Of a stretch of DNA of 64,000 bases, positions 2,361 to 62,734 are shown in pieces. Made by a program: the position numbers and the translations under genes. The notes beneath the pieces are model-generated. The model was not told where the DNA came from. It ran no database searches and worked only from the letters and a program-made list of their open reading frames with translations. This DNA is from a virus. The stretch covers positions 32,001 through 96,000 of IMG/VR virus record IMGVR_UViG_3300043313_001352; one strand, given 5' to 3'. Each line of letters starts with the position of its first letter. Within the stretch, counting starts at the first letter, position 1.

Positions 2361-2424
2361 CCATGCCGTGCCATGCCCAACCAAGCCCCGCCTGACCGAG
2401 CCAGACCCCGCCATGCCTCGCCGC
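2361..2424 (-). repeat. single GGY-NN pentamer unit (orphan guide-like element)
   Basis: 12 consecutive perfect GGY-NN pentamers on the minus strand. Confidence 0.8.
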
Positions 2425-2606
2425 GTACTCGGCTCCAGGCTAGCGCCAGCTGAAGGCCAGCTGGGCCGCCGCGGAACGTCACTGACGTTTACGCAGGCGG
2501 CCAACCCTCCAGCTGGGCTTCAGCGTTGCGCACTGTTGCGATGGCGGGACGGTGTGGTATGCTTACTTCAGTAAGCGACACAGAGACACAACGAAGGGAC
2601 ACCCCC

Positions 2607-23435: not shown

Positions 23436-23520
23436 CGTCGCTCTCCTCCACGTTGATTGGTGATTCACCTGTTGCCAACCTACCGAGCCCGCCCCGCTGG
23501 GCTAGGCTCTCCCCGCCCTC

Positions 23521-23871
23521 GGCAAGTCGGGGCAAGGCTTGGCTTGGCATGGCAGGGCAGGGCTCCCCCTAGGCCAGGCGCGGTCAGGCAGGGTTCGGCT
23601 CGGTCAGGCAGGGCAGGTTCGGCAGGGCGCGGTGTGCTGAGGTCCGGCGTGGCGAGGTGGGGCAAGGCACGGCAGGCTCGGAGCGGCTCGGCACGGCTAG
23701 GCATGGTGAGGCAGGCACACCCAGGCGGGGTCCGGCAGGGCACGTCAGCATTTGGCAGGGCATGGCAGGTGGGGCAAGGCTCGGTGTGGCCTGGCGGCGT
23801 ACGGCATGGTTGGGTTCGGTTCGGCGTGGCAGGCACGGTTAGGCATGGCAAGGTGAGGCGTGGCGAGGCGC
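23521..23871 (+). repeat. second GGY-NN pentamer mini-array (about 5-6 units)
   Basis: GGCAA GGCTT GGCTT GGCAT GGCAG...; GGCAGGY punctuation at about 23612, 23671, 23710, 23764, 23828. Confidence 0.9.
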
Positions 23872-23919: not shown

Positions 23920-24324
23920 ATGGGAGGGAACAAGCGCGGGTCGGTATTACGGTCACTGACCTGCCACTACTGCGGTGAGCGGGCCGAGGGCGAAGACCAC
24001 ATCGTGCCGCGAGCCGACCTGCCCAAGCCGCTCTCGAAGCTGCCCTACTGGTTCCGCGCCAACGACGTCGTTCCGGCCTGCCAGCCCTGCAACGGCGACA
24101 AGGCGTGGTTCAGGTCCGACTGCGTCTGCTCGCACTGCACATGGGCTTGGTCCACCGCTCACGCGCTGTTCCTGCCCGAGGGCTACACCGAGCGCGGTTG
24201 GGTCGCCATCCAGCAGAACCCGACCATCGCGATGCCGCTCGCGGTCCCGCGCCCCGACCGGTCCGCCTACCCAGGCACCCGCGAAGGCCGGTCCGACCGC
24301 GAGTCCCAGGCCCTGTCGAACTAG
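23920..24324 (+). CDS. HNH endonuclease
   Basis: CHYCG....EDHIVP...NDVVPACQPCNGDK. Confidence 0.85.
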   Translation: MGGNKRGSVLRSLTCHYCGERAEGEDHIVPRADLPKPLSKLPYWFRANDVVPACQPCNGDKAWFRSDCVCSHCTWAWSTAHALFLPEGYTERGWVAIQQNPTIAMPLAVPRPDRSAYPGTREGRSDRESQALSN

Positions 24325-37138: not shown

Positions 37139-38920
37139 ATGAGCCAAGTCGGCGTGACCCCTCTCGTTGATGCACCAGCTGTCGTGACCTACGGACAGGT
37201 CAAGGGACGGTTCGTGCAGTACGTCGCCGACACCACCGACGTCGGCAACATCCCCGACGAGATCCCGCTCGAAGGCCGGGTCACCCTGACCCCGCTGACC
37301 TCGATCGTGCAGTTCCCGAGCACGGTGCCACCCCGGATGGCGGTGGCCTCCACGGTCCAGGCCGTGATCACCGCTGGTGACCTGAAGTCCGCCCAGGGCC
37401 AGGCGCTGTACGTGATCGCCACCGACCAGCCCGCTGGCATCCCCAACAAGGTGCAGTGGCGCGCGGCGTTCCAGCTCGCCGGGATCACCACCCAGCCCGC
37501 CCCGGTGGTCTTCGACGTGCCCGCCAACGGCGTGGTCGACCTGTCCTTGGTCGTCTCGGTGCCCGCCGCACCACCCGTGGTCACCGTGGTCAGCCACGTC
37601 GACGCCACCGCGGCTGCTGCCTCGGCTGCTGCTGCAGCCGCTTCCAAGACCGCCGCCGCCGCCTCCCAGACGGCCGCTGCTGGGTCGCAGACCGCTGCGG
37701 CTACCTCGGCCACCAACGCTGCCGCCTCAGAGACTGCCGCTGCCGGGAGCGCTGCGTCGGCGGCTGCATCCACGATGAACAACGGCTTCCCGGTGATCGC
37801 CACCAACATCACCCCGAACCCGGACTTCGGTGTGGACGGCTCGCAGTGGAGCGTCAGTAGCCTGGTGCTCGGCCGCAGCACTGTGTGGTCTGAGACTGGC
37901 GGCGCATCCGGCAAGGTCACCACCAATGCATCGCCGTCCACGGCCAGCATCTGGCCGTTCCCTACCGCGACACCCCGGTTCCTCGCCAACCCCGGTCAGT
38001 ACGTGCGGGTCATGTACCGCATCCGTTGCATCACCGCTGGCCGAGTCAGCGTCAAGAGCGTCAACTACGACACCGGGGGCAGCACCGGACCCGGCACCAT
38101 CAGTGGTGGCACCTACACGATGAACCCCGGTGACACGTTCACCACCGACGACATCCTCGGTCCGCTGCCCGCCAACACCGTGTCCTTCCAGCCGCGTCTC
38201 TACCTCTACGACCCGGCGATGGCCCCGCCGCTGGGTTCCACCGACTACCTCTACATCGACCGGCAGATGACCCTGCTCGGGGACAGCCCGCAAGCCGTCG
38301 CGCAGGCCGACTACTTCGACGGCACCGGACCGGCGACCAAGTGGACCGGCACCGTGCGCAAGTCCCCCTCGCAGCTGCTCAGCGAACGCGCCACAGACGG
38401 GGCCTTGGCGAACGCTGCCATCGTCGGCAACGGCTCCCCCGAAGCCAGGGTCGCCGCCCTGGTCGGCATGGAGTACATCGACCGGCTTGCCACCAACGGC
38501 GCGGTCAAGTGGATCAAGGCCACCGGCACCGGCGCGACAGGGTGGAAGGTGCTCTACGGCGATACTGGCGAGCGCATCGTGGACGCCTCCATGTTCCTGA
38601 ACGGATGGACCAGCAACGGCAACATCGCTGCGCTTCGGCTGCGGCGCATCGGCACCATGGTCACGCTGAACGGGACCGTTGACTCGACCGCAGCCACTGC
38701 AACCACCTTGTTCCAGTTGCCGGTCGGCTTCCGTCCCATCTCCTACAAGTACGGCCATCTGTGGGACACCGCAAAGGGACCGCTGGCTCGCCTGGAGATG
38801 CGGGAGACAGGTTCAGTCGTCCAGGCCGGACTGGTGACACCTGGACCGTCATCCCTCGTCTTCGACTTTCCGCCCTTCGCCACGAACGACGTCTGGCCCG
38901 CGACCTTGCCGGGAGTCTGA
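37139..38920 (+). CDS. minor tail / tail-fibre protein
   Basis: Ala-rich stalk, CBM-like NPDF domain, G-x-GSPE..V-x-A..G..Y-x-D...TNGA..WIK..GTG-x-TGW motif, LP-x-GFRP tip. Confidence 0.75.
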   Translation: MSQVGVTPLVDAPAVVTYGQVKGRFVQYVADTTDVGNIPDEIPLEGRVTLTPLTSIVQFPSTVPPRMAVASTVQAVITAGDLKSAQGQALYVIATDQPAGIPNKVQWRAAFQLAGITTQPAPVVFDVPANGVVDLSLVVSVPAAPPVVTVVSHVDATAAAASAAAAAASKTAAAASQTAAAGSQTAAATSATNAAASETAAAGSAASAAASTMNNGFPVIATNITPNPDFGVDGSQWSVSSLVLGRSTVWSETGGASGKVTTNASPSTASIWPFPTATPRFLANPGQYVRVMYRIRCITAGRVSVKSVNYDTGGSTGPGTISGGTYTMNPGDTFTTDDILGPLPANTVSFQPRLYLYDPAMAPPLGSTDYLYIDRQMTLLGDSPQAVAQADYFDGTGPATKWTGTVRKSPSQLLSERATDGALANAAIVGNGSPEARVAALVGMEYIDRLATNGAVKWIKATGTGATGWKVLYGDTGERIVDASMFLNGWTSNGNIAALRLRRIGTMVTLNGTVDSTAATATTLFQLPVGFRPISYKYGHLWDTAKGPLARLEMRETGSVVQAGLVTPGPSSLVFDFPPFATNDVWPATLPGV

Positions 38921-39117
38921 TCACACCGCCCGCATCGGGCAGTCCTTCGCGTGCCAGCCGTACTCACCGCAGTGCGTGCCGTCGGGGAACCTCGTCCCCG
39001 GACATGCCCGGACCTTGCGCAGATCCTCGCGCTCCTGTTCCTCCACGTACGCGGTCTCCGCTTCCTCGTCGCGGCGCCGGTACTCCTCGGCGAAGTCTGG
39101 GTCGTCGTAGTAGGAAC

Positions 39118-39588
39118 TCAGCTGGCTTCACCCGCGCTGGCACTGAGGTCGGTGAGCACCTCGTTGGCGAACTCCGCCATGTGCTCGTAGCGCTTCTTGA
39201 AGGATCGCCAGTCACGGCGCATCTGGCGCAGCATCAGCTCGCGCTGGATCGGGTCCGTGATGACCTCCTCGATCGGCTCGTACGCCGAGGTCGGGCTGCC
39301 GTCTTCTCCACGGGTGACCCAGAACGCCCGGAGGTCGGCGCGCTTGTTGCCGACGTCGGCCTTGTACTTCACGCGCAGCAGGTTCCCGGCCTGGTGCAGC
39401 CGCCACTTGTGCGCGGCCACGTCGTCACGCCAGTCGAACCGGTGGTGCAGTGGGTGGTCAGGATTCGAGGCTTCCTCGACCACGACCTCTGGGGTCAGCA
39501 GCCCGCGCTTGTCTCGGATCGCCAGCAGCACGTCACGCAGGTTCTCACCAGCGCTGGGCACTGGGGTCTCGTCGGTTCCGTTCGTCAT
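39118..39588 (-). CDS. accessory protein of the RAMP/GGY-NN locus
   Basis: LTPEVVVEEA-x-NPDHPLH..F-x-W-x-D..AA..WRL-x-QA..L; GGAGGG RBS; directly downstream of the array on the same strand. Confidence 0.8.
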   Translation of the reverse strand: MTNGTDETPVPSAGENLRDVLLAIRDKRGLLTPEVVVEEASNPDHPLHHRFDWRDDVAAHKWRLHQAGNLLRVKYKADVGNKRADLRAFWVTRGEDGSPTSAYEPIEEVITDPIQRELMLRQMRRDWRSFKKRYEHMAEFANEVLTDLSASAGEAS

Positions 39589-39620
39589 TGCGTCCCTCCC
39601 GTTTCAGGTTGGTGAATCGT

Positions 39621-42600
39621 ACCTCACCACACCCGTCTCGTCAGTAGCCGCGCCGGGCCACGCCGAGCCGTGCCCAACCATGCCTTGCCAATCCGCGCCT
39701 GCCGCACCTTGCCGCACCCACCTATCCATGCCGGTCCCAGCCTCACCACGCCTGCCTGGCCGCGCCACGGCGCGCCTTGCCCGGCCATGCCTTGCCAACC
39801 CCGCCTGCCTTGCCCGGCCGCGCCTAGCCTTTCCACACCGCGCCTGCCCCGCCATGCCGAACCTGGTCACGCCTCGCCCAGACGGGCCTGCCAAGCCCAG
39901 CCCAGCCAAACCTTGCCTTGCCGCACCTGGCTGTGCCACGCCTGCCTGGCCGCGCCACACCCAGTCGTGCCAGGTCCCGCCTAGCCATTCCCTGCCTGCC
40001 TCGCCGTGCCTGACCGCACCCCACCATGCCTAGCCCCACCGCGCCTGCCATGCCGTACCAGACCTTGCCGAGCCAACCGGGGCTGCCTTGCCAAGCCCAC
40101 CGCACCTAGCCCTCCGCGCTGCGCCTGTCCATGCCTAGCCCTGCCTGCCTCGCCATGCCGTACCGGACCCTGCCGGACCGGACCACTTCGGAACACACCT
40201 AGCCATGCCCTGCCGAGCCTGCCAAGCCACGCCCCACCGGACCCGACCACGCCTAACGCCACCTGGCCCCGTCAGTCCGTACCTAGCCACGCCTGCCTTG
40301 CCGTGCCGTGCCGGGCCTAACCCCACCCGACCATGCCTTGCCTGCCGCGCCGCGCCCACCCGGCCATGCCTAGCCCCAGGTCACCTCGCCCAGCCTGCCT
40401 CGCCCAACCCGGCCATGCCTAGCCCTGTACGCCGCGCCACGCCTGCCGGACCAAGCCGCGCCTGACCGAACCAAGCCCCGCCGAGCCCACCTCGCCTGCC
40501 GGACCTGGCCGTGCCTGGCCTAGCCGCGCCCATCCATGCCCCGCCTGCCAAGACCCGCCGTGCCGTGCCATCGGTACCGAGCCCTACCAAACCACGCCTG
40601 CCGCGCCGTGCCAGACCGCTGCCGTGCCGACCACGCCTAACCTTGCCCCGCCTGCCGTGCCATGCCCAGTCGCACCCTGCCGCGATCGCCATGCCCAGCC
40701 GTGCCGTTCCTGCCATGCCGGACCTCGCCCTCCCGGCCATGTCGTGCCCTGCCCCGCCTGCCCTGCCGAGACTGGCCGAGCCGTGCCATGCCTTGCTCAC
40801 CTGGCCGTGCCGAGCCCGGACCCGCCTGCCTTGCCATGCCGGGCCGAGCCGTGCCTACCTGACCTAGCCCTGCCTGCCCAGCCACAGCTTGCCGTGCCTT
40901 GCCATCCGCGCCTCGCCTGCCGCACCCCACCTAGCCTGACCGAGTCATGCCCCGCCTGCCTCGCCTTGCCAGGACATGCCTTGCCACACCGCGGTGCACC
41001 AACGCCTCGCCTGCCAAGCCTTGCCTTGCCGTGTGCTGCCAAGCCGGGCCTGGACATGCCCACACGTGCCCTGCCGACCCGAACCACACCGAGCCATGCC
41101 TGCCGCGCCACGCCTTGCCTTGCCATGTCAACCGGGCCTGGCCCTGCCGCCCGCGCCTTGCCACGCCTGCCCGACCACACCACGCCTTGACCTACCCACG
41201 ATGCCCCGCCTGCCGGGCCTAGCCCTGCCTTGCCAGACGATCCTGGCCGCGCCTGCCCTGCCTTGAGCGCCTTGCCTCGACCCGCCGTGCCAGGACTGCC
41301 GGACCGTACCGTGCCCAGCCTCGCCACGCCGTACCTAGCCGCACCTGCCGGACCGTGCCTTGCCCAGCCACTCCATCCGTACCTAGCCTGCCGAGCCGTG
41401 CCTTGTCACGCCACGTCCCGCCCGGACTCGCCCCACCGAGCCATGCCTGCCCAGCCGAACCACTCCTAGCCTGGCCATACCCTGCGCTGCCTGCCGTACC
41501 GAGCCACGCCGTACCGCGGAAGCCACGCCGATGCCTTGCCCCGCCTGCCGAGCCGTTCCTGGCCATGTCCCGCCGCGCCGTGTGCTGCCCCGCCTAGCCC
41601 CGCCTGCCGCGCCATGCCTTGCCGACCTTGCCTCGCCCAACCGTGCCAGACCTGCCCCGCCGCACCTAGCTGCACCGCACCAAGACCCGCCTGCCGCGCC
41701 TGGCCGAACCTTGCCATCCTTGCCCTCCGCGCCGCACCGAGACACGCCTGCCCAGCCCCGTCGTGCCATGCCTGGCCGCGCCCCACCTGACCAAGCCTGC
41801 CGAGCCGGGCCGCACCATCCTCGCCATCCGGTGCCGTGCCCCGCCTTGCCTGCCGCGCCGCGCCCTGCCAAACCTAGCCAAGTCGTGCCCTGCCATGACG
41901 AGCCGTGCCGGACCTGCCGTACCTCGCCACGCCCAGCTCCGCCGAACCTCCCGAGCCCAGCCATGCCTGCCGAGCCGAGCCGCGCCCCGCTTCGCCCTGC
42001 CAGGCCCGACCTTGCCATGCCTGCCACACCCGGCCTTGCCACATACTGCCGCGCCCACCGATCCTGGCCGCGCCCAGCCATGCCTGCCCGGCCCCGCCGC
42101 ACCTCGCCATGCGCTGCGATACCACGCCACGCCCTCCGCGCCTGCCTGGCTCAGCCACACCGTCCCGTGCCACGTATCCCAGACCACGCCATGCCTGCCT
42201 CACCTAGCCCTGCCAAGCCCGGCCAATCCTGGACGTGCCGGACCGAGCCAAGCCTGCCGGACCACGACGTCCATGCCCTGCCGCTGCCATGTGATGCCCT
42301 CCGCACCGAGCCACGCCTGCCTGACCGCACCAGACCCGGCCGCACCCTGCCTAGACCACCGCGCCATGCCTGCCGTGCCGAGCCAGCCCTTGCCTCGTGA
42401 AGCCCAGCCCCGCCTCGCCGTGCCCAGCCAATCCGCGCCTGCCCCACCGATCCAAGCCCTGCCTTGCCTAGGCAAACCACGCCTGCCTGGCCTAGCCGGA
42501 CCAAGCCGAACCCCGCCTATCCCCGACCCGCCTGCCGGACCGCACCTTGCCGTCCGCGCCGCGCCCAACGATGCCCAGCCACGCCTGCCGAACCGTGCCA

Positions 42601-43622
42601 CGCCGTACGCCCCAAGCCGGACCCAACCTGCCCCGCCTCGCCTAGCCCAGTCTCGCCATGCCCAGCCTGGCCGTGCCCCGTTCACCGCGCCTGCCGAGCC
42701 TCGCCCCACCGACCTAGCCAACCCAGACCTAGCCTGCCGCGCCTCGCCCAGACAAACCATCCTCGCCGGACCGCCCGCACCTCGCTGCGCCAAGCCTGCC
42801 GCGCCACGTCATGCCACAGCTCGCCGCCCGTACCAAGCCTCGCCTGCCCCACCTCACCTAGCCAGGACGCGCCGGACAGCACCACGCCTCGCCACACCTT
42901 GCCTGCCGGGCCGCACCGAACGATGCCGAAAGCCACCAAGCCCAATCATCCGAGCCGCACCACGCCTGCCTTGCCCGGCCGGACCGGACCGCGCCGTACC
43001 CGCCCCTGACAAACCCTGCCTAGCCCTGCCAGCTCCCTGCCATGCCTGGCCTGCCAGACCACGCCCCTCCGAACCTGGCCACACCATGCCCTGCCTCGCC
43101 TGCCGTGCCCGACCCTGCCAACGACGCCTAGCCCTGACACACCATGCCCTGCCTGCCACGCCGTGCCCAACCAAGCCCGGCCGGTCCCTGCGATGCCTTG
43201 CCATGCCAAGCCTGCCGTGACCCGCCTTGCCACGCCCCGCTTGCCCCGACGCACCTGGCCTTGCCTAGCCTGCCGAACCTAGCCGAGCCACACCATGCGT
43301 AGCCCCGCCGGACCAACCCGAGCCCCGCCCTGCCTGCCGCGCCTGGCCGTTCCCAGCCCACCAAGCCACACCGTCCCGGCCAAGCCTGGCCGTGCCAAGC
43401 CTGCCCAACCGCGCCTGGCCAGACCAAGCCAAGCCGTGCCATCCGCGCCTTGCCGACCACTCCGTGCCGCGCCCCGCCTGCCGGGCCTGGACTCGCCGTG
43501 CCATGCCTAGACCTGCCTGCCATGCCGCGACGACCGGGCCAAGAATCCCATGCCCCGCCCCGCCTAGCCTGCCCCGCCGAGCGATGCCCTGCCGCGCCTA
43601 GCGTTGCCATCCCGTGCCTGCC
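39621..43622 (-). repeat. ~4-kb GGY-NN pentamer array, about 70-75 unique units delimited by GGCAGGC; putative guide-RNA array
   Basis: 5-nt periodicity of GGC/GGT plus a variable dinucleotide, reset every ~40-65 nt by GGC-A-GGC; ORFs in all frames are low-complexity. Confidence 0.95.
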
Positions 43623-43635
43623 GTGTCCGGACGTG

Positions 43636-43678
43636 GGACGAGGCAGGACGCACCCCCCAGTGGCGCCCTGCCTCGTCC
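43636..43678 (-). other. strong hairpin between the RAMP gene and the array
   Basis: 12-bp perfect stem GGACGAGGCAGG / CCTGCCTCGTCC. Confidence 0.8.
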
Positions 43679-43693
43679 GGCTCTGAGCTGAGG

Positions 43694-44377
43694 TTACTTG
43701 ACCTCGACCGAGCGCGTCGGGTCGATCATGAAGGTGCCCATGTCGCCCTTCTTCTCCGGGCGCCACTCACCGACGCCGACACCCAGGCCACCGGCCTCGA
43801 TCAGCGAGAGCACGCTCTCGCGGGTCAGCATCGACTTCACGTACGTCACCTCCAGCACCGTCGACCACTCGGTGAACTGCGGCCGGTAGCGCAGGTCGGT
43901 GCCGCCGTTGCCGACGCGCACGACGTCCTCGCGCATGATCGGCTCGCCCTCGATCCGGACCATCATCTGGCCCTCGGTCTTGGACATCTCGCCGGAGAAG
44001 AACAACGTCTGCCGGAGGCTGACCATGGTCACGCTCTTGTCGAAGAACCTCGCAGCGCTGACGGTCGCGGCCTTGAACGCGATCGAGGGGAACCCGTAGC
44101 CGCCGTCGTCCATCTTGTAGGCCGCGGCCTCGTAGTCGCCCTCGGGGTCCTTGGGCGCCTTCGGGCTCTTGCGGCCCTGCATCGCATCCAACATCTGCCT
44201 CTTCGCCTTCTCGCTGAACTTGTGCATGATCAACGGCGCGGAGCCGACGATCGGGATCAGCAGCGTCTCGGTGCCGATCCGGGAGATCTCGATCGCCGGT
44301 GCGCTCTCGTCCTCGGCGGGAGGAGGAGTCGCTGCGGTCTTCTTGGCTGCGGTCTTCTTGGCAGGCTTCGTGGCCAT
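43694..44377 (-). CDS. stand-alone Cas7/RAMP-like RNA-binding protein
   Basis: IVG-x-APLIMH strand, GFPSIAFKAA..SAA (compare RAMP IP-x-S-x-(L/F)KG), RP-x-F..W, and C-terminal Gly-rich loop GGLGVGVGEWRP...G-x-F. Confidence 0.75.
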   Translation of the reverse strand: MATKPAKKTAAKKTAATPPPAEDESAPAIEISRIGTETLLIPIVGSAPLIMHKFSEKAKRQMLDAMQGRKSPKAPKDPEGDYEAAAYKMDDGGYGFPSIAFKAATVSAARFFDKSVTMVSLRQTLFFSGEMSKTEGQMMVRIEGEPIMREDVVRVGNGGTDLRYRPQFTEWSTVLEVTYVKSMLTRESVLSLIEAGGLGVGVGEWRPEKKGDMGTFMIDPTRSVEVK

Positions 44378-44402
44378 GTGTCGTTCCGTCCTTGAGGTTG
44401 TG

Positions 44403-44442
44403 TTCCCCACCTTGGGGAATCAGGTGACGGCAACGTAGCACA
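44403..44442 (-). promoter_or_regulatory. putative promoter for the RAMP-array unit
   Basis: Minus strand TGTGC-TACGTT resembles the early promoter TGTGC-TAAACT at 15398; downstream hairpin TTCCCCA-3nt-TGGGGAA. Confidence 0.5.
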
Positions 44443-44471
44443 GGGACCTAGACCATGGTGTGGAGACTCGC

Positions 44472-45398
44472 TCAAGACCAATACGAGTACGTGACTCTCA
44501 AAAGGAAGTTCCCAGCCGGTGAGTCCACCGAGTAGCCGAAGTAGCCGGGGTTGGTGCTCGGCCCCGGCCCGAGAGTGATCCCGCAGAACGAGCTGTACGT
44601 GATGACGGTGGCCGCCCAGCTGGTGATGTCGACCTCGAAGTAGGAGGAGTAGGTCAGATCCTTGCGGGTGCGGTTGGGCACGGTGTCCGCGGTGTTCCAG
44701 CTGCTGGGCTTGGTGGTCTGGTTGTAGAAGTCGCCGACCACCGCGACCCCACCGGCCTTGTCCGACCAGTACGCCCAGCCCGCGTTGCAGTCGAAGATCA
44801 CCTTGGAGACCACCGCACCGGCAGGGAAGGAGGGGTTGAAGTACAGCAGCGACTTCCGGTTGCCGTGCGTACCGGAGTAGTAGCCCTGGTGCACGGCACC
44901 GTCGTGCCCGGTGCCGCTGATCTTGTTGCCCGCACCGTTGTACGCCTGCGTCCAACCGACCGGAAAGTTCACGGTCGTGGTCTTCTGGGTCTGCACCGTG
45001 ACCATCGCAGTCTCCGCGGACGAGGAGGATGCGTGCGTGGTCGAGCCGGTGAACTTGGCGTAGAACTTGGTGGAGGCGACCGGTGACGTGCTGATGGTGG
45101 CAGTGCCGCCACCCGGCGGTGCTGCCGCGGTGGCGAACTTCACCCAGGTGCTGGAGGAGCTGAAGTAGTAGAACTCGATGTTGCCGCCGTTGCGCCCAGT
45201 GGTGCTGGCCGTCAGCGTGAACGAGGAACCCTTGTGTATCGAGGTGGCTGACTTGGTGCACGTGGTCGTCGTCGAGATCAGGCCGCTGCTCCCACCGTCC
45301 TTGATCGACTCGTAGGTCGGTGCCTGCCAGTCACCCGGTGCGAACCGCCACACCGCCCCGTCCCAGACCCGGATCGTGCCGGGTGCATAGCTGGTCAT
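44472..45398 (-). CDS. minor tail protein
   Basis: VWDGAVW N-terminus, Ig-like Thr-rich domain, QGYYS...GN..S motif. Confidence 0.7.
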   Translation of the reverse strand: MTSYAPGTIRVWDGAVWRFAPGDWQAPTYESIKDGGSSGLISTTTTCTKSATSIHKGSSFTLTASTTGRNGGNIEFYYFSSSSTWVKFATAAAPPGGGTATISTSPVASTKFYAKFTGSTTHASSSSAETAMVTVQTQKTTTVNFPVGWTQAYNGAGNKISGTGHDGAVHQGYYSGTHGNRKSLLYFNPSFPAGAVVSKVIFDCNAGWAYWSDKAGGVAVVGDFYNQTTKPSSWNTADTVPNRTRKDLTYSSYFEVDITSWAATVITYSSFCGITLGPGPSTNPGYFGYSVDSPAGNFLLRVTYSYWS

Positions 45399-47728
45399 GC
45401 TGCTCCCATCCTTGCGGCACCGGGCAGGTAGATCACGATCACCCGGTCCCGGTAGACAGTGGCGTTAGGGCCTCCGTGGCCGTACTCGGTGCGGATCATG
45501 TACTTGGTCCCTGCGGTCACCGCCACGATCGAGAACGTGGTGTAGGGGGTCCGGCTGGGCACGGTGTCGGAGGAAGAGATCGCCACGTCTCCAGCGAACC
45601 CGACGTAGCTGCCACCCAACCCGTCGCTGTTCACATCGCTGTAGGCCCCGCACCGCATCAACAGGTAGTCGTCATAGTCCGCACGCCCCGCCCCGGTGGA
45701 GATGGCGATCATCACGCCGTCGGCCGGTGGTGTGGTCACCACCCGGTAGGCGTTCGGCACAGCGGCGTACCCCGAGGCCAGCAGCGGCACGTTGTTCGCG
45801 GTCACACCCATGTAGCCGCCGGTCATCACCGTGATCTTGGACTGCACCGTGGTGGCGTCCAGCCACTGGCTGAACATCGGCCAGGCAGCGAACGGGAAGC
45901 CCAGGTCCGCAGGCTGAGGTGTGGCACCAGGATCACCGGACCACAAGAACCGCGGCGAGACCACGGTCTCATCCGGCAGCAGTCCCAGCGCCCGGTCCAC
46001 GTAGCTGCGCGGTGTCACGTCACCGGCCTGCTCAGGCGGGTCGACCACCGGCCCGATCCGCATCGGCACCACCGGATCGGTGTCGGGCGGACTGATGTCC
46101 GAGGTGGTGATGTCGGGTGCCGTGATCGTGCCCTCGGACGTCACCCATCCAGGCTCCAGTCCATCGGCCATCCGCAGCTCACGTGGTGAGCGGATCACCT
46201 CGTGGGTATCGACCAGCACTTGTCCGGCCGTGCAGGTGATGAACGGACGGAAGAACACCGAGCCGGGCAGCGGGGTGACCGCTGCCTCCACCGCAGCAGT
46301 GGCGCCAGGAGCAGGTTCCTCTCCATCACCGACCGCGAGGTACCCGGCCACGTTCTCCCAGGACGGTTCGACGGTGTAGTAGCTCGACGTGGACATGCGC
46401 GGCTCGCCGTCCCACACGAAGGTCTCGTCCTCCAGCGAGACGGTGTCGCCGTCGAAGTAGGTGCGCCCGTTCGGCAGTGGGTTCTGGCCGAGCCGGAGCA
46501 GCACGTTGTCGAGGTAGGCCACCTTGCCTGCGGCGGGCGCCGCGCAGTCGAGGCCGACGAAGTAGTGGTGGCTTTGACCATCGTTCGGGACGGTCATCTT
46601 CACCTCGCTGTGGACCCACTGGTTCTTGGCGGTGATCGTGGGGCTCTCACCGGCGAAGACGTAGTGCAGCTTGACGTCCGGGTTCCCGGCAGGGACGTAG
46701 ATCTCGGCCGACAGCGTCAACAGCGAGCCCGGTGGGATCGCCTGGGTGTCGATCACGCAGTTGCTGTGCGTGGTCCCTGAGCCCAGGTTGGGCCAGGTCA
46801 CCTTCACCGCCTGGCTCCCGGAGTAGTACCGCTCGGTGGCGTACTCCACCGTGCCGACCGCGCCGGATCCGAAGGTGGGGTTGGAGTGCCACTCGGGTCC
46901 TTCGCCCGCGGTGGGGGAGGCGTCCTCAGCGCCGGGCTTGGTGACCAGGTTCTGGGCGACCAGGATCCCGGTCTCCTTGGTCGGAACGATCGCCACCTGG
47001 TTGCTGCACATCACCGGCCCGAGCAGTTCGTGGTCGGCGTCGTAGCACAGCCAGCCCATCGACAGCGCGGCCGAGCTACCCAGCGCGGAGACTCGTGCGT
47101 TGCTGCGGTAGAGGTTGACCTCCGAGATCGGGATCGGGTCGCCGTCCCAGTAGACCGAGCCACCGGTGCCGATCTGCCAGCCACCACCGACGGTCTGGCC
47201 GGGCAGCTCGGCGATGAAGGTGGACGGAGCATCCAGCTGCTCCCACAGTTCGCGGCTGTACTGCCACCACGAGGTGAGCGCGACGTCGGCGCCGCCCGAG
47301 CTGGGTGTCCCGTGGATGTGATCGGAGCGGGCCAGCGTGGCTGCGGTCCCGTCGGCTGCAGCAGCACCAGCGACCACCGACTCTGCGACCGGTCCGAACT
47401 TCGCATCCAGGCTCACTGCACTGGTGTCGTGGGACCCGTCGTCGGTCACCGTGGCGCCCACCGATGCGGTGGAGCGGAAGTCGAGCGTGCTGCGCTGAGC
47501 ACGGGCAACCCCGTCGTCGGTCACCGTGTCGTAGTAGGACCGACTGCTGATCCAGGCGGTCCCGTCCCAGTACTTCAGCACCTGAGGTGTGCTGGAGGTG
47601 TCGAACCAGAGCTGGCCCTTGGCCGGGTTGGCCGGTGCCGTGCCTCGGTTCTCGGCCCGTGCGCTGATCAGCTGGTTGTGCCGCAGGTCGATGTCGGTGG
47701 CGAACCATTCTGCAGCGGGCGTCGTCAT
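45395..47728 (-). CDS. minor tail / fibre protein with CBM-like domain
   Basis: AP-x-NP..GQLWFDT, ARSDH-x-H, YFDGDT motifs. Confidence 0.75.
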   Translation of the reverse strand: MTTPAAEWFATDIDLRHNQLISARAENRGTAPANPAKGQLWFDTSSTPQVLKYWDGTAWISSRSYYDTVTDDGVARAQRSTLDFRSTASVGATVTDDGSHDTSAVSLDAKFGPVAESVVAGAAAADGTAATLARSDHIHGTPSSGGADVALTSWWQYSRELWEQLDAPSTFIAELPGQTVGGGWQIGTGGSVYWDGDPIPISEVNLYRSNARVSALGSSAALSMGWLCYDADHELLGPVMCSNQVAIVPTKETGILVAQNLVTKPGAEDASPTAGEGPEWHSNPTFGSGAVGTVEYATERYYSGSQAVKVTWPNLGSGTTHSNCVIDTQAIPPGSLLTLSAEIYVPAGNPDVKLHYVFAGESPTITAKNQWVHSEVKMTVPNDGQSHHYFVGLDCAAPAAGKVAYLDNVLLRLGQNPLPNGRTYFDGDTVSLEDETFVWDGEPRMSTSSYYTVEPSWENVAGYLAVGDGEEPAPGATAAVEAAVTPLPGSVFFRPFITCTAGQVLVDTHEVIRSPRELRMADGLEPGWVTSEGTITAPDITTSDISPPDTDPVVPMRIGPVVDPPEQAGDVTPRSYVDRALGLLPDETVVSPRFLWSGDPGATPQPADLGFPFAAWPMFSQWLDATTVQSKITVMTGGYMGVTANNVPLLASGYAAVPNAYRVVTTPPADGVMIAISTGAGRADYDDYLLMRCGAYSDVNSDGLGGSYVGFAGDVAISSSDTVPSRTPYTTFSIVAVTAGTKYMIRTEYGHGGPNATVYRDRVIVIYLPGAARMGAA

Positions 47729-50383: not shown

Positions 50384-53300
50384 CTAGGTGTTGAGGAAGG
50401 AGGTCGTCAGGTAGATGACGTCACCGTTGGCCACGGTGCCGATCGTGACTCCACCGCCAGAAGAGATCTGACAGTTGACTACCGTGTTGGTGCCGTTGCG
50501 GGCGAGGAGGTTGACGGAGATTACTGGGCGTCCAGCAGTCAGCGGGATCGTCGCCATGGTCGTACCCGAGCCTGAGGCGCGCGAGAAGGTTCCTCGGAAG
50601 TAGACCTGCTCTCCGATGATCTTGTACGCAGGCACGATGTTTCCAGCACCCCACCCCGCTCCGTACGCGAAGGAGTTCCAGCCACCACCTTGCGCGGAGT
50701 CGGCAGGCATGGACTCATCAGTGGCCCACTCGATCCTTCCGGCGTCGATGTTGAAGTACGCGACCAGCACCCAGTTGTTCGGCACCGTGAAGTCGCTGAG
50801 GTAGTTCGTGTACCGGAAGTTTGCGGCCAGTGAGGTCGCAGCAGACCCGAAGGGGATCTCGTACCAGAGAACGTCCCATGAACTCATAGGGACGCCTGCC
50901 GAGGTGACCGTCTTTTGAGTGGCCCCGCCGAAGTTCGGGATCACCGTGCCAACAGGCGGCATGGTGATCTCGAAGTAGCCAGAAGGGGCAAGGTTGACGC
51001 TTCTACCGATACTCATCGGCATGAACCGCGCAGACCACGAGATGTTGTAGTTGATGTCAACGACCTTGACACCGCCACCAGAGAGTTGTGACTGGGCACG
51101 GATGGAGTAGTACAGCTGCTCAAACGCCTTGCCAGTGAAGGAAGTCGCGCCAGCGCCTCCGACGTCCAGGGTCTCGAAGTGAGCGACACCGTCACCAGTG
51201 AGCTTGATCTTGGGGAACCCGCCAGTGCCTGGTGCGTTGGACTCCCATGAGGCTGGAGACGCAGCGATGAAGCTGGTGAGCAGCGGCGGCGCATCGGTGT
51301 CACCTACGGCACCGACGAAGTTCGGGGTGCTGACGGTCGAGTACGTCGCTCCGACTCCAGACGGCAGGAACGCAGGCTGCTCAGGCTGCAGGATGAAGTC
51401 AGTCCGGATCGGCGTGATGTTGAGCGCCGCCCGAGTCAGGTAGAACCGGAACGAGTTCACATCGTTGACAGTCCGTGCCGTGCCCTTACCTGCAGCCGGG
51501 TCTGGCAGGTCCGGCACCGTGACGGTCAGCCGAGCCCGCTTCTTCATCGTGATCGAGGCGTACGCCGAGGCGTTCGACTCCTGGATGGCCCCTTGGGAGT
51601 CGTACCAGGTGAACGCTCCCCACCAGATCGAGGGATCCGTGGCTGCCCAGGTGATCCCGGTGTAGTTGTAGAACTGCGGGCCGTCAGTGGCCGGAGCGGC
51701 CGTGAACCTCGTGAACGCACCAGTCAGCACATCTCCACACGCGCTGACACTCCGGGTCGCTGGGACCGCTGGGAACTCCAGGTCGACCAGACGCGCGGGC
51801 GAGGCAGCGTCAGTGAAGACGTAGTTGTTCACCGTCCCGTGGATCACCCAGATGTCCCGGTCGGTCGTCTCGAAGCCCATCCGCTGCGAGGAGCCGTAGG
51901 TGACACCGCACAGATCCTCGTCCTGGGCGAAGAAGGATGAGTTGATGGTCTTCGTGGCGCTCGGGGTGATCGTGGTGTCGGTGAAGGCCAAGGTGGCGAG
52001 TTCAATGGTGCCACCGGGCCATGGTGCGAACATGTTCCGCTTGGCTTGCGCGACCATGTGTGCGCGGGTAGCACCGGTCGCTGAGAAGCACCGTCCCAGC
52101 CGCCATTGCCAGAACCAGGAGAAGGTACCGTCCTGACGCTCGGCCTTCTTGATCGGGGCGAGAGTGCCCGAGGTGTTCATCGCTGAGTCGTCCCAGCTGG
52201 TGATCATGTACTTCTCGTCGCGGGCTCCAACGTACCCAGCGGTGCGGAAAAATCCGTTGGTGACCTGTCGCTCAAGCCCACCAACAGCGATGACTGAGTT
52301 GCCATGGAAGGTGTAGTACGCAGCTGTCTCCCCGTTGCTGTTCGCGACGCGGGGGACCTGCCACCAGGTGGTCCCCTTCTTCATCGTCGCGTCGTCGAAG
52401 AATGTGTTCGCACAACGGAACGAGCCAGTGGACTCAGCACTGTCCAGGTGGAAGCCCCAGAACGGGTCACACCACTGTCCCCGTGCGAACGCGGACTGGG
52501 GGTAGTCCGTGCCCAGCGAGGGACCTGAGGTGGCACCCACGGTCTGGGTCTGCAGGATGGTCTTGGAGCCCATCGCGAAGGTCGACTGGCCGCGGACATC
52601 CATCCCCTGGCCGACCGTGAGCCCGCGTGCCATGATCTGCGCGTCGATCACCGAAGGCTTCTGTGGATCGTTGGGCAGGTCGACCCGGATCGAGACACCA
52701 TCGGAGCCGTACTGCCTCAAACCCTCGCTGGACAGCTCCATCCGCTGCCCGGACTCAGCCGTCTTGATCTTCCCGATGATGGCGAGGTCAGCGTCCAGCT
52801 TCGCGCCCTTGATCTGAATCGCGTCCACCAGGTTGGTGTAGATGTAGCCGTCGGAGATGTCGGCCTCGGTGATCTGACGCAGGGTGGCCGAGCCAGCAGT
52901 ACCGGGAGCAGCGGAGTTGAACCCGCCACCGATCTTGGCGTCCTTGGCGACGATCCGCACGTAGTAGGTGACCGAGCCGTCCTTGACCAGGAAGGTGCCG
53001 TCCGCCAGCTGCTCACGGATCGTGTAGGAGGTCGCCGTGGTCTCGATCTGCAACGTCGCTGCCGATGGCGTGAACGTGGCACCGGTGGTAGCGCAGTGCA
53101 CCTCGTAGGTCACCGTGTCGTGGTTGAGGATCGCAGGCCACTTGATCCCCAGCGAGGAGACCGAGCCCGTCACCGTAGCTGCGGGTGAGGACGCAGGCGC
53201 AAGAGCATCGGGCGTGGCGGCGTTGTACGCCGAGTCAGCCGTGGCCGGGACGTTCGAGCTGGCCACAGTGAGCAACAGGTCGAAGATGCCAGAAGCAGCC

Positions 53301-56300
53301 GGGATGTCTGTCTCAGGCACCAGCGTGGTGTTCCAGCCTGTCTGCCAGGTGTCAGGTGGCAGGGTGTGTGAGATCTCGGCATCCACTGCTGTGATCTTCG
53401 GGTACTGCCAGTAGTTGCTGGCTGCCTGCGAGGTCAGGATGATGACCAACGTCCCGGTGGAGATGCGTCGAGCTACCCGAACCCCAATCGGCAAGTTGCC
53501 GGTGTTCACTCCCGTCGCGTTCGCGACTGAGGGCGGTGGACCTGCGTAGGAGTAACCGGATGTCTCCAGGTTGAAGGTCCCCTGGGTGGAGGCGTAGTTG
53601 AACCCCGAGAGCTTGATCTTGTACATCCGGTTGGTGAACGTGATCGGGGTGTCGATCACGATGTTGCCCGTCAGGTTCCCAGCCGCGTTCGCGTAGCTGG
53701 TCACGTCTCGGAACAGCTTCCCGTTGGCCCCGATCAGCGAGATCTTGGGCAGCGCCTGAGAGGCAGCCGTGTAGGAGGAACTCTTGGAGACCCCGGTGTA
53801 GGTGAAGGTGAGGTTCGAGTAGGTGATCTTGTTGGTGGTGTACAGCTCGGTGTTGGTCAGGTAGCCAGGCTCGGTCGGGACCCAGGGAGCCACTGGAGTT
53901 GCCACCACCGGTACGGCAGGTGCTGCTGCTCCAACAGGAGTCACCGTGGCGTAGTACGGAGTGACCGCCGTGATGCTGACACCCTGGGCACCAGCACCAC
54001 CGGTCGAGCCCTGTGCTCCCGTGTAGGAGACAGACCAGGCGAAGGTCTTGGTGAAGCTGACACCTCCGACCGTGATCGGAACCGTCAGAGTGCCGCTCTG
54101 GGTCACCAGAGCCGTCGTGACCGTGGCTGTGAACTGCGCCGTCAGACCGGGGTTGTTCTGGTACGTGATCGTCATGCCGGTCGGCGCACCAGTGATCGTG
54201 CCGATCGTGGCGGACTGCTGGACGGCGCCCTTGTACGCCAGCACCTGACTGGTTGTGAACCCGGCCACTGCAGCAGAGACGGTGCCGGGGAACACCTGAG
54301 CTTCGTTGGTCAGGACGACCGTGACTGCGTCCGCGCCTACGAAGCCAGAAGAGCCGTCGGAGATCTTGGAGATCGTCATGGTGTCGGTGACACCCGACGC
54401 GCCCGTTGCCTTGATGGCCAGAGTCTTCGCAGTCATGATCGCGCCGGTGACGGTCACGACATTGCCCGCCACCGAAGCGTAGATCGGAGCAGCACCAAAG
54501 GTGCCGCCGTCTGCACTGAACGTCCACGTCGAAATCGTGGTGCCGGTGGGAGTTCCGGTGATCACTGCCGTTGCAGGAGTTGTCGTAGCAGGTGCGACTG
54601 TGAAGTTGTCCAGCCTGCCAGCGTTGACGCCGAAGTTGTAGAGACCGTGTCGGGTGCCTGTGTAGGTGGCATCGGTGGCGGTCACTACCGTCACGTCGTT
54701 GATCTTGCCTTGCAGTGTTGAGCCAGACGCGGTGATGGAGACCTTGTCGCCGAGCACGGCCAATGCCGTGGACTGGCCAATGGTCGTGTACGTCTCGGCA
54801 CCGTACGCCCCTGCTGACCGATAGATCTGCAAGGACCCGTTGTTGTTGATGACCAGCACGTAGCCGTTCAGGTTGGTCAAGTTGTGCCGGAACGCTATCC
54901 CTCCAGAGAGTAGGCCGGTGATGACAAAGGAGACGGTGACGTCCGCGGTGCCACACTCCACGTCCGCGTAGGACTGACCACCCGTAGCGCCAGCCGTCGC
55001 GATGTACGCCTTGCCGCCGCTGACACCCCACACCGAACTGTTGTCGTTGCGCCACGCCTGACCCGTCTCAGTGGTACCGAGCGAGGTGGTTGAGTCTCCA
55101 CGGTTGAACGAGTCGAGGATCGTGGGAGCAGGAGCAGACAGTGCCTGTGTGGTGGCGGTCAGGTCAACGATCGTGGCCGCCGCGCCAGTCGCTCCACCCG
55201 CACCTGTGAAACTCAGCGCCCACGTGAAGACCTGGTTGAACGTCATTCCGCCCACGGTCACTGGGATGGTGAACGTTCCAGTCGCTGTTGCCAGAGCAGT
55301 CGTCACCGTGAAGGTGATCAGAGGTGCTGTAGTCCCGTTGTTGGTCACCGCTGCTGTGATGCCGGTAGCGCCACCAGTGATCGTTCCGACCGTGGCTACC
55401 TGAGCCACCGTGCCCTTGTACGCGATGACCGTCGTGGTCGCTGTCGTAGCCAGCGCGTTGGTGAGACCAGCAGGGAAGCTCTGTGACTCGTTGGACAGCA
55501 ACACGGTATAGGCGTCTGCTCCTGCGGGACCTGATGGTCCCGTGCCTCCGGTGGCGCCAGTTGCACCGGTGAGCACCTTCGCCACCGTGAGCGAGTCCGC
55601 GACACCCGCGTTGTTGCCTGCCCGCACCGCGATCGTGCTGGCCGTCATCGTCGCCCCGGTGATGGTCACCACGTTCCCGGCGATCGACACGCCAGGTGGT
55701 GCTGTCCCGGACCAGGCACCGCTGTTGACGCTGTAGTCCCACACCGTGATCGTGGTGTTGACCGGGGTGCCCGTGATGGTTGCCGTGGCCGGGGCGGTAG
55801 CACCGGTCCCACTTGCAGGAGAGACCAGAACCTGAGCCGTCGAGGTCAGCGTGATCGTGGCAGCGTTAGATCCAGGAAGACCCTGTGGACCTTGGGTCTG
55901 GGTCCACTCGTACAGGTTCGCATCGGTACTCTCGACGGCGGTCGTCTGGTTGTACGCGAGGCCCATGTGAGTGCCCACAGCGCTGTCGGTGACGTTCTTG
56001 ACAGCGTGGTAGACCTCCTTGATGAAGACCTTGATTCCGACAGCCTTGTTGTACGACAGGAGAGCGAGACGGACAGCAGTGGGAGCGCCCGCTGGAACGG
56101 TTGCCACACCGCTGTAGTCCGCGTAACTCGTGGTGATTCCACTGGGCTGCAAGCTAGTGAAGCGAACGACTTCTGTAGTACCGGCAGCGTTCAGCAGGAT
56201 CGCGTAGATCCCCGACCCATCCCCTATGACGGTGCTTCTCATCCTGATGCGGAGGTAGATCACGTCGCCCGGAACCACGTCAAGCGTCTGCATGGCCGTG

Positions 56301-62300: not shown

Positions 62301-62734
62301 CCGACGATCCAGATCTGGCCCGGTAGGGGAGCGGTGGGTGCCGTCTGGGGTGTGGTGCCGATGATGCTGACGCTGGCGCCGCTGTTGCCCGTCAGACCGG
62401 ACGGACCAACCGGTCCCGTGGGTCCGGTGGCTCCGCGCGGCCCGGTCGCACCGATCTGGCCTTGCGCACCCTGGGATCCTGTCGGCCCCAGCGGACCAGG
62501 GACGCCGACCGGGCCAGTCGGTCCGGTCGGACCCAGAGCACCCGGTGTGCCGACCGGCCCGGTAGGGCCAGGAACACCCTGTGGCCCCTCGGTGCCGGGG
62601 ATGACCAGGTCGATCTCATTGGGATCGCTGGAGACCAGGTTGACGCTGACCCGCGGCTCTCCGGAGATGATGTCCAGCTCGATCTCCCCCAGGACGCTGG
62701 ACAGCGTCACATTGTCCGTATTGTCAACGGTCAT
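50384..62734 (-). CDS. giant modular tail fibre / host-specificity protein (4116 aa)
   Basis: Collagen GXY linkers, 13 YTW(I/L/V)KY modules, 6 T(I/V)-x-LT..(S/T)Q-x-L modules, 6 ADA(Y/V)T..L-x-NE-x-Q modules, FN3-like and tip domains. Confidence 0.9.

What the first reader, a model, noticed from the sequence alone, without database searches (positions are those of the whole stretch)
39621..43622. Internal grammar of the array: about 70-75 unique units punctuated by GGCAGGC
Seen: the 5-nt register is reset by a 1-nt spacer (GGC-A-GGC) every ~40-65 nt; my hand count is about 73 such marks including variants. Example 42025-41965 (minus): GGCAGGC AT GGC AA GGT CG GGC CT GGC AG GGC GA AGC GG GGC GC GGC TC GGC TC GGCAGGC, i.e. 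10 dinucleotides or 20 variable bases. All 16 dinucleotides appear and the units I compared differ from each other, unlike a slippage satellite. Inference: GGCAGGC is a processing or filament-boundary signal, and ~14-22 variable bases per unit is enough to specify a unique site. If targets are read as NN-x-NN-x, the skipped base could fall on codon wobble positions, making synonymous escape ineffective.
Basis: partly seen in the sequence, partly recalled or inferred. Interest (0 to 1): 0.92.

Follow-up and report, generated by a model that had tools for sequence, protein, structure and literature searches.

The report
Giant VIPR guide-RNA array in phage
A soil phage carries a 4-kb array of about 74 guide units for the recently described VIPR RNA-guided DNA-silencing system; it is the largest such array among about 200 loci compared, and one guide matches, codon by codon, the E1 enzyme gene of a bacterial ubiquitin-like (Bub) operon.

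Summary
On the minus strand, 39650-43625 is a run of GGY-NN pentamers cut into 74 units by the four-letter step GGCA (66 exact GGCAGGC). Each unit has 7-17 repeats, most often 9-10.

It is a "staggered" vrRNA array of a VIPR system, described in 2026 bioRxiv preprints.
- The upstream gene (43694-44377) is a Vipr protein. Its family profile hits the solved SUSP1 Vipr (E 5.8e-7), its model is Cas7/Csm3-like, and the GGY-binding residues are kept.
- The downstream gene (39118-39588) is a winged-helix-like accessory protein.
- In about 200 related loci the array always lies on the vipr strand. Arrays there have a median of about 250 nt and a maximum of 1.6 kb, so this one is exceptional.

A 96%-identical relative shares 49 units with near-unchanged NN, while whole units are swapped (18) or missing (7).

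Unit 40150-40223 matches the ATP-loop motif of Type II Bub E2-E1 genes at codon positions 1-2: 28/28 letters for the relative's allele and 26/28 for ours, in 38 metagenome contigs. Targets of the other guides were not found, and no RNA data exist.

Verdict: a new, unusually large member of a known kind. The scan's first readers had also flagged this locus in other windows.

The parts
43694..44377 (-). vipr gene: 227-aa RAMP (Cas7-like) protein that would coat the guide RNA, one protomer per pentamer. An upstream GTG at 44410 would give 238 aa.
   Evidence: A profile of 30 homologues hits PDB 36pp 'SUSP1 Vipr protein' at E 5.8e-7 over the G-loop region. The AF2 model (pLDDT 80.6) gives Foldseek top hits Csm3, type VII Cas7 and Cas7-11 at E 2e-6 to 1e-4. 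E204-W205-R206 and R165 are invariant and align with SUSP1 D177/W178/R179/R138, which hold the GGY letters. 4473 homologues were found and none has a Pfam domain.
43636..43678 (-). GC-rich stem-loop between the vipr stop codon and the first unit. It has no U tail. Possible attenuator, terminator or 5' processing/stability element.
   Evidence: RNA fold gives -39.3 kcal/mol, z -3.15, and 0 of 200 shuffles fold as well. A stem-loop that also folds is present in the relative L122, with sequence differences in the stem. The consensus scan found no sigma-70-like promoter or U-tailed terminator in 38900-45600.
39650..43625 (-). Staggered vrRNA array: 74 GGCA-delimited guide units of 7-17 GGY-NN repeats (mode 9-10).
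   Evidence: Periodicity is about 4.9-5 with no period-3 signal. There is no Rfam match.
40150..40223 (-). Unit 63: a 14-repeat guide whose NN letters, read with a 1-nt skip, match the ATP-binding loop codons (S/A-I-V-G-L-G-G-T-G-T/A-Y-I-L-D) of Type II Bub E2-E1 (BubBD) genes.
   Evidence: The metagenome scan gave 61 exact hits to the 11-NN core. All are in frame at codon positions 1-2 of DUF6791+ThiF proteins. With flanks, 38 contigs match the relative's allele 28/28 and ours 26/28, and the wobble letters vary freely. Neighbouring genes are Multi_ubiq and DUF6527, which together form a Type II Bub operon.
39118..39588 (-). vap-like accessory gene: 156 aa, with an N-terminal winged-helix-like domain and a C-terminal helical hairpin.
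   Evidence: A homologue sits next to vipr homologues in 71 of 80 genome loci and 57 of 75 viral loci. The AF2 model has pLDDT 88.8. VIA-align top rows are forkhead, MarR and ESCRT-II winged helices at Z 5-6.4 over residues 10-111, which is middling. No Pfam domain; phrog_15946.
23520..23870 (+). Orphan vrRNA array of about 7 units, 16 kb from vipr on the other strand.
   Evidence: The unit at 23764 has its best own-genome NN-x match (19/24) in the adjacent HNH gene at 23989-24024, in codon phase.
2362..2431 (-). Solo guide-like unit of about 11 GGY-NN repeats, followed by a GC-rich hairpin.

Best explanation
The region is the guide-RNA array of a phage-borne VIPR (Viral Interference Programmable Repeat) system. 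It has three parts on the minus strand: vipr (43694-44377), a 4-kb staggered vrRNA array (39650-43625) and a winged-helix-like vap gene (39118-39588).

Inferred mechanism, following the published SUSP1 system. The array is transcribed in the sense of its G-rich strand and cut at or near the GGCA steps into about 74 guides. Vipr protomers bind one per pentamer and bury each GGY. The exposed NN pairs read double-stranded DNA, skipping every third target base, so the skip falls on codon wobble positions. Binding blocks transcription of the target.

What is shown here:
- the anatomy of the array;
- the identity of Vipr;
- the linkage of array, vipr and vap across about 200 loci;
- cassette-like evolution of the units, with NN preserved;
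- one in-silico target, the E1 ATP-loop of Type II Bub operons.

What is inferred: transcription, processing at GGCA, filament formation and silencing.

The array is about 15 times the usual size. Unit turnover is concentrated at the vipr-proximal end.
For: - Vipr identity: SUSP1 Vipr, E 5.8e-7; Cas7/Csm3 fold; GGY-contact residues kept.
- Array grammar.
- Linkage: 160 of 160 arrays near vipr homologues lie on the vipr strand. 63 of 80 loci found by the protein have an array, and 75 of 120 loci found by the array pattern have the protein. In Gordonia phage Pipp the annotated 'gp43' between the two homologous genes is itself a 244-nt array.
- Evolution against relative L122 (Vipr 96% identical, 3.5-kb array): 49 units shared, 18 replaced, 7 absent. 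In shared units, substitutions are NN 27/877, GG 39/877, Y 41/438 and mark 0/196. Heads change while NN stay. Soil contigs show unit-sized skips at the same units.
- Target of unit 63. 1 of 331 Actinomycetota genomes has a match within 3 mismatches and the reversed-pattern control has 0; the single positive genome, G093, is unpublished.
- No self-target: main-array guides do not match the phage's own genome better than shuffled guides.
- NN composition is 50% GC in a 67% GC genome. It fits codon positions 1-2 (logL -1924) far better than phases that include the wobble base (-2266, -2406) or contiguous dinucleotides (-2043). Strand coherence within guides gives p 0.02.
- Literature.
Against: - Only one of about 80 guides has an identified target. 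Seeds from units 8, 25, 47, 57 and 63 and from the orphan HNH guide gave nothing real in viral contigs. Unit 47 gave nothing in 401 Actinomycetota genomes.
- Our own allele of unit 63 matches the common Bub allele at 26/28, not 28/28.
- A uniform NN model fits the composition as well as codon positions 1-2 do.
- 43 of 74 units carry internal four-letter steps whose effect on target reading is unknown.
- There is no invariant 3' tail or pseudoknot between units, unlike the characterised type II vrRNAs.
- No promoter was found by the sigma-70 scan.
Confidence: 0.9

Rival explanations
1. It is a genuine VIPR-type array, but most units are not active guides. They could be fossil or decoy units, for instance a sponge that titrates Vipr proteins of competitors, or a reservoir for recombination, with only a minority directing silencing.
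For: - 43 of 74 units have register-breaking tetramers.
- Many heads are degenerate (GTC, GAC, CGC, AGC and so on).
- Only one target was found.
- Published satellites use solo vrRNAs to redirect a phage's VIPR.
Against: - NN letters are kept in 49 units shared with a diverged relative, including units with internal tetramers, and the tetramers are themselves conserved.
- The array sits between the phage's own vipr and vap genes.
Confidence: 0.07
2. It is a decayed pentanucleotide satellite or a structural DNA/RNA element (G-quadruplex tract, R-loop former, packaging or replication signal) with no guide function.
For: GG occurs every 5 nt on one strand, with GC skew of about -0.33 on the plus strand. 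In principle such a sequence could form two-tetrad G4 structures (own knowledge, not tested).
Against: - A decaying satellite would lose GG and NN alike. Here NN are the best-kept variable letters in shared units and are replaced only as whole units.
- The array is tied to a Vipr gene on the same strand in 160 of 160 cases.
- One unit matches a conserved protein motif 28/28 in codon phase.
Confidence: 0.02
3. The region codes for low-complexity proteins, for example the 485-aa plus-strand ORF at 41763-43220.
For: Several ORFs of 100-485 aa overlap the array.
Against: - The period-3 signal is 0.57, against 2.5-4.8 in the flanking genes, while the period-4.9 signal is 5.6.
- Token-shuffled arrays give stop-free runs of 355 +/- 68 codons (maximum 557), against 516 observed.
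- The four longest ORFs have no Pfam match.
Confidence: 0.01

Closest known systems
VIPR systems with staggered vrRNA arrays (bioRxiv 10.64898/2026.04.26.720920, fig. S18; structures in 10.64898/2026.04.26.720927)
   Same: - A Vipr RAMP protein of about 20-25 kDa with a G-loop, next to a small DNA-binding-like accessory gene.
- Guides made of GGY/NN pentamers, about 9-16 per guide.
- Units that abut, so that one ends where the next starts.
- NN letters that read DNA with a 1-nt skip on wobble positions.
- Phage-borne.
   Different: - Size: 74 units in one 4-kb array, against a handful per locus in the published examples. The median in about 200 loci here is about 250 nt and the maximum 1.6 kb.
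- The one target found is a Bub ubiquitin-like operon, not a satellite, prophage regulator or rival VIPR.
- Which of the seven published types this clade belongs to could not be checked, because the supplementary tables are not held.
SUSP1 / P. fulva type II VIPR (the experimentally characterised systems)
   Same: Homologous Vipr: a profile hit over the thumb and G-loop, with the same GGY-contact residues W, R and R, and E in place of D. The pentamer code is the same.
   Different: Type II vrRNAs are separate transcripts of about 100 nt, each ending in an invariant tail with a pseudoknot. Here there is no tail between units, only the one-letter-short step GGCA. Sequence identity is low: only 64 residues align.
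Class 1 CRISPR-Cas (Cas7 backbone on crRNA)
   Same: The RAMP fold; one protomer per fixed number of guide nucleotides; a thumb that flips bases periodically; an array of unique guides that evolves by gain and loss of units.
   Different: There are no 23-50-nt direct repeats, and no cas1/cas2 or other cas genes in the window. The guide is noncontiguous (2 of every 5 letters). The system is phage-encoded, and how new units arise is unknown.
Phage-encoded RNA counter-defences (e.g. RNA anti-CRISPRs; own knowledge)
   Same: If the Bub match reflects function, a phage noncoding RNA array would act against a host or mobile-element immune-type operon.
   Different: Those RNAs mimic host CRISPR repeats to poison the host's effector. 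Here the phage brings its own effector and would silence the gene at the DNA level.

Membership tests
VIPR system | Vipr protein (stand-alone RAMP with RRM core, thumb and glycine-rich loop) encoded next to the repeats | tested here: met
   The HMM profile hits PDB 36pp SUSP1 Vipr at E 5.8e-7. Foldseek gives Csm3/Cas7 at E 2e-6. The G-loop reads GGLGVGVGEWRPE.
VIPR system | Residues that hold G1, G2 and Y3 (SUSP1 D177, W178, R179, R138) | tested here: met
   They align with E204, W205, R206 and R165, all invariant in 30 homologues. D to E is a conservative change. The H17 equivalent could not be placed.
VIPR system | vrRNA made of tandem GGY/NN pentamers with conserved GGY and hypervariable NN, 9-16 per guide | tested here: met
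   698 pentamers, of which 82% have GGC or GGT heads. All 16 NN occur. Units have 7-17 repeats, mode 9-10.
VIPR system | Accessory vap gene with a DNA-interaction fold | tested here: inconclusive
   The partner gene is conserved in 128 of 155 loci that hold a vipr homologue. It resembles a winged helix only at Z 5-6.4, with no Foldseek hit below E 0.6.
VIPR system | NN letters specify a DNA target with a 1-nt skip (xNN), usually on codon wobble positions | tested here: met
   Met for one guide only. Unit 63 matches Bub E2-E1 genes at 26-28 of 28 letters, in frame, in 61 contigs of 35-69% GC. Other guides have no target yet.
VIPR system | No self-targeting at 80% NN match or more | tested here: met
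   Main-array guides match the phage's own genome no better than shuffled guides. The best orphan-guide match is 19/24, or 79%.
VIPR system | vrRNAs are expressed, processed and bound by Vipr, and the complex represses transcription | not testable with these tools
   Needs RNA sequencing, pull-down and reporter assays.
VIPR type II (SUSP1-like) | Each vrRNA ends in an invariant 3' tail with a conserved fold or pseudoknot | tested here: not met
   Units abut directly. The only invariant letters between them are GGCA-GGC. So this is not a type II array; it fits the 'staggered' architecture of the preprint.
CRISPR array | Identical direct repeats of 23-50 nt separating spacers, with cas1/cas2 nearby | tested here: not met
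   No such repeats were found. The neighbouring genes are a 308-aa Ig-like protein, a 777-aa protein with weak matches to virion structural and minor head proteins, and tail proteins.

The most novel reading that the evidence does not exclude
The array is a phage-borne counter-defence library. Many of its roughly 74 guides would silence immune-type or mobile-element genes of the host, with the Bub ubiquitin-like operon as the first example. The concentration of unit turnover at the vipr-proximal end would reflect a directional way of adding new guides without Cas1/Cas2. If so, VIPR would serve as programmable anti-immunity as well as a weapon between phages, and Bub operons would be marked as relevant to phage infection.
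Probability: 0.3. Interest if true: 0.85.

Novelty: new member of a known kind. Interest (0 to 1): 0.6.

Why it matters
VIPR was described only in 2026, and characterised loci hold a few guides. A 74-guide array between vipr and vap, with a 3.5-kb sister array that shares two thirds of its units, gives a natural data set for three questions: how such arrays gain, lose and exchange guides; whether acquisition is polar; and what the internal four-letter steps do.

The codon-phased match of one guide to the E1 ATP-loop of Type II Bub operons is the first hint, in the literature held here, of a VIPR guide aimed at a predicted immune operon rather than at a phage or satellite. It also bears on an open question, because the authors of the Bub study could not show what Bub operons do. 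A phage that keeps a guide against them suggests they matter during infection, and this is directly testable.

The locus also shows that short 'hypothetical proteins' in actinophage annotations, such as Pipp gp43, can be vrRNA arrays.

Tried and rejected
- Near-identity DNA search of the flank in the phage collection: no match.
- Rfam on 38500-45000: nothing.
- Local gap-model test (skip 0-3 against shuffled NN) on the phage's own genome plus 120 array loci: no model above controls. The database was too small to be informative.
- The same test on the 61 Bub loci: only unit 63 at skip 1 stands out (26/28, z 7.2). That set was selected with the skip-1 pattern, so it is not an independent comparison of gap models.
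- Exact NN-x seeds in viral contigs. Units 8 and 63: 0 hits. Units 25 and 47: 19 and 20 hits with no extension match. The orphan HNH guide: 3 chance hits. Unit 57 (guessed JAB motif): 1 hit with an in-phase stop.
- Unit 47 with up to 3 mismatches in 401 Actinomycetota genomes: not found in those searched.
- Guide sharing with about 200 other arrays: none beyond chance, apart from L122.
- Host assignment: the primase has only 24-31% identical relatives in isolated actinophages. The closest genomic Vipr homologues (68-72%) are in MAG contigs of mixed labels. The host remains unknown, probably a soil actinobacterium.
- No RNA holder was listed among public runs, so RNA ends could not be mapped. 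Contigs of four soil runs were laid instead.
- PADLOC hits of the Bub E2-E1 protein are weak matches of its ThiF domain to CBASS E1-E2 models. They are not evidence that it is a CBASS gene.
- Decoding the other guides to peptides by eye gave no motif I could name with confidence.
Full report
**What is there.** On the minus strand, between a 227-aa gene (43694-44377) and a 156-aa gene (39118-39588), lie about 4.0 kb with no period-3 signal and a strong signal at about 4.9-5 nt. The sequence is a chain of GGY-NN pentamers. A dynamic-programming parse gives 828 tokens: 698 pentamers, 123 tetramers and 7 longer tokens. The commonest tetramer is GGCA (74 copies, 66 of them as exact GGCAGGC). It divides the region into 74 units of 7-17 tokens, most often 9-10. 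43 units carry one or more further tetramers (GGTG, GGAT, GGAG and others) at variable places. All 16 NN occur. The units are not copies of each other. The GG letters flanking the mark are 95-100% conserved, and the head after it is GGC in 93% of units. Two refinements apply: register resets also occur inside units, and units carry 14-34 variable letters.

**What the genome is.** The window lies in a 114,034-bp single-contig virus record of 67% GC. It has primase, tail and glycosyltransferase genes and no close isolated relative. Soil metagenomes from several studies hold the stretch, some contigs letter for letter.

**The flanking genes.**
- The upstream protein has 4473 homologues and no Pfam domain.
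- A profile of 30 of these homologues hits one solved structure, 'SUSP1 Vipr protein' (PDB 36pp), at E 5.8e-7. The alignment runs through ...YRP...W... and the glycine-rich loop GxGxWRP.
- Its AlphaFold model (pLDDT 80.6) matches Csm3, type VII Cas7 and Cas7-11 (Foldseek E 2e-6 to 1e-4).
- The residues that hold G1, G2 and Y3 in the SUSP1 cryo-EM structures (D177, W178, R179, R138) align with invariant E204, W205, R206 and R165.
- The downstream protein folds confidently (pLDDT 88.8) into a winged-helix-like domain plus a helical hairpin. Structural matches are only middling: Z 5-6.4 to forkhead, MarR and ESCRT-II winged helices.

**Literature.** A full-text search for 'pentanucleotide repeat' with 'phage' and 'noncoding' led to the 2026 preprint that defines VIPR systems. 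These consist of a Vipr RAMP protein, a vap accessory gene, and vrRNAs of 9-16 YNNGG repeats whose NN letters read double-stranded DNA while skipping one target base, usually the wobble base. They are mostly phage-borne and are used to silence competing elements. [quoted passage not shown] Companion papers give the filament and triplex structures, the role in phage-satellite conflict, and recovery of 5-nt arrays with a language model. The kind is therefore known. The supplementary tables are not held, so the type number of this clade could not be looked up.

**Linkage across loci.**
- Homologues of the two genes are neighbours in Gordonia phages (Pipp, UmaThurman, ODay, Ecliptus) and in 27 Mycobacterium phage records. 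In Pipp the annotated 270-nt 'gp43' between them is itself a 244-nt array.
- A pattern scan of viral contigs returned 120 loci. 102 have arrays and 75 have a vipr homologue within the fetched stretch.
- A protein scan of species-representative genomes returned 80 loci from Actinomycetota, Alphaproteobacteria, Clostridia and other groups. 63 have a recognisable GGY array within 2.5 kb, and 71 have the vap homologue.
- All 160 arrays lie on the vipr strand. Gene order varies: array-vipr, vipr-array-vap or vipr-vap-array.
- Median array length is 234-296 nt and the maximum 1,585 nt. The present array (about 3,980 nt) and that of its relative L122 (3,477 nt) are far outside this range.

**How the array evolves.** L122, a 177-kb viral contig, has a Vipr that is 96% identical.
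- Unit-by-unit alignment gives 49 shared units, 18 positions where the unit is a different sequence, and 7 units absent from L122.
- In shared units, substitutions are 0/196 at the mark, 27/877 at NN, 39/877 at GG and 41/438 at Y. In several units most heads differ while NN are unchanged.
- Non-shared units are concentrated in the 18 vipr-proximal units: 11/18 against 14/56, Fisher p 0.009.
- Soil contigs show skips of 49, 53, 70-74 and 107 nt that remove exactly the units missing in L122.
- This is the behaviour of a cassette array whose information lies in NN, not of a slippage satellite. No guide is shared with the other roughly 200 arrays.

**Testing the NN-x reading.**
- Local searches with skips of 0-3 against the phage's own genome and the fetched loci gave nothing above shuffled controls. 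This shows absence of self-targeting but is otherwise uninformative.
- Exact seeds from four guides found nothing real in viral contigs.
- Earlier first-reader notes on this genome suggested decoding guides as codons, and pointed to an orphan array. I confirmed that array at 23.5-23.9 kb and a solo unit at 2362-2431. The orphan unit at 23764 has its best own-genome match (19/24, reached by 1% of shuffles) in the DHIVP motif of the adjacent HNH gene, in codon phase. No better target was found elsewhere.
- Decoding all units showed that unit 63, read on the opposite strand, spells S-I-V-G-L-G-G-T-G-T-Y-I-L-D, and that the L122 allele spells A-I-V-G-L-G-G-T-G-A-Y-I-L-D.
- A metagenome scan with the 11-NN core gave 61 exact hits. 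All are in frame, with NN on codon positions 1-2, in proteins of about 400 aa. 38 contigs match the L122 allele at 28/28 letters and ours at 26/28. The 14 skipped letters differ freely among contigs of 35-69% GC.
- The proteins are DUF6791+ThiF. Their neighbours are Multi_ubiq and DUF6527 genes and, in one of the two loci examined (L267), a fused HTH + M78 peptidase protein. This is the Type II Bub operon (BubA, BubBD, BubE, often with CapH+CapP regulators), whose biological role is still open.
- In a sample of 331 Actinomycetota genomes, one has the site within 3 mismatches, and the reversed-pattern control has none. That claim rests on genome G093, which is unpublished, and no detail of it is used.
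- The two NN differences between the phages' alleles correspond to S/A and T/A codon changes.
- Indirect support: NN are 50% GC in a 67% GC genome. They fit codon positions 1-2 far better than phases with the wobble base, although a uniform model fits equally well. Guides show modest strand coherence, p 0.02.

**Limits.**
- There is one target for about 80 guides. Unit 47 was not found in 401 genomes, and unit 57 gave a chance hit.
- Transcription, processing and silencing are inferred from the homologous SUSP1 system.
- The stem-loop after vipr (-39 kcal/mol, also present in L122) and the absence of consensus promoters or terminators leave the transcript structure open.
- The meaning of the internal tetramers is unknown, though they are conserved in L122.

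**Rivals.** Protein coding is excluded: there is no period-3 signal, ORF lengths are as expected from shuffled tokens, and there are no Pfam hits. A decaying satellite or a purely structural element is contradicted by NN conservation, strict linkage to vipr, and the 28/28 codon-phased match. A mostly inactive or decoy array remains possible but is not favoured.

**Verdict.** The new points are the scale, the polar cassette turnover, and a guide aimed at a Bub ubiquitin-like operon.

Noticed in passing
window 23520-23870 (+): A second, orphan GGY-NN array of about 7 units lies far from vipr and on the other strand. Its 12-repeat unit at 23764 best matches (19/24, in codon phase) the DHIVP motif of the adjacent HNH endonuclease gene at 23989-24024. 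It may be aimed at homologous HNH genes of other phages, with the phage's own copy just below the 80% match level.
   Followed up: partly
window 2362-2431 (-): A solo guide-like unit of about 11 GGY-NN repeats, followed by a GC-rich hairpin. It resembles the 'solo vrRNAs' described for Enterobacteriaceae phages.
   Followed up: no
L001 (Gordonia phage Pipp, MN234179.1) 5611-5880: The annotated CDS 'gp43, hypothetical protein' is a 244-nt GGY-NN array between the vipr and vap homologues (gp42, gp44), so it is probably a mis-annotated vrRNA array. The homologous gene pair also occurs in Gordonia phages UmaThurman, ODay and Ecliptus and in 27 Mycobacterium phage records.
   Followed up: partly
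window 50384-62734 (-): A single 4116-aa ORF. It was not examined.
   Followed up: no
L265 7661-9930; L267 3396-5921: The loci hit by unit 63 are Type II Bub operons (Multi_ubiq, DUF6791-ThiF, DUF6527). In L267 a fused HTH + Peptidase_M78 protein (CapH/CapP-like domains) and a ResIII helicase lie next door, which suggests a defence-island or mobile-element setting.
   Followed up: partly
window 39650-43625 vs L122 8735-12211: Unit replacement and loss are concentrated in the 18 vipr-proximal units (11/18 against 14/56, p 0.009). This resembles leader-proximal turnover in CRISPR arrays, although no acquisition genes are evident.
   Followed up: partly
L162-L241: Vipr homologues of this clade (29-72% identity), with the same vap partner and same-strand arrays, occur in genomes labelled Actinomycetota, Alphaproteobacteria, Clostridia, Bacteroidota, Chloroflexota and others. 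17 of the 80 loci had no GGY array by my detector and may use other repeat consensus sequences.
   Followed up: no
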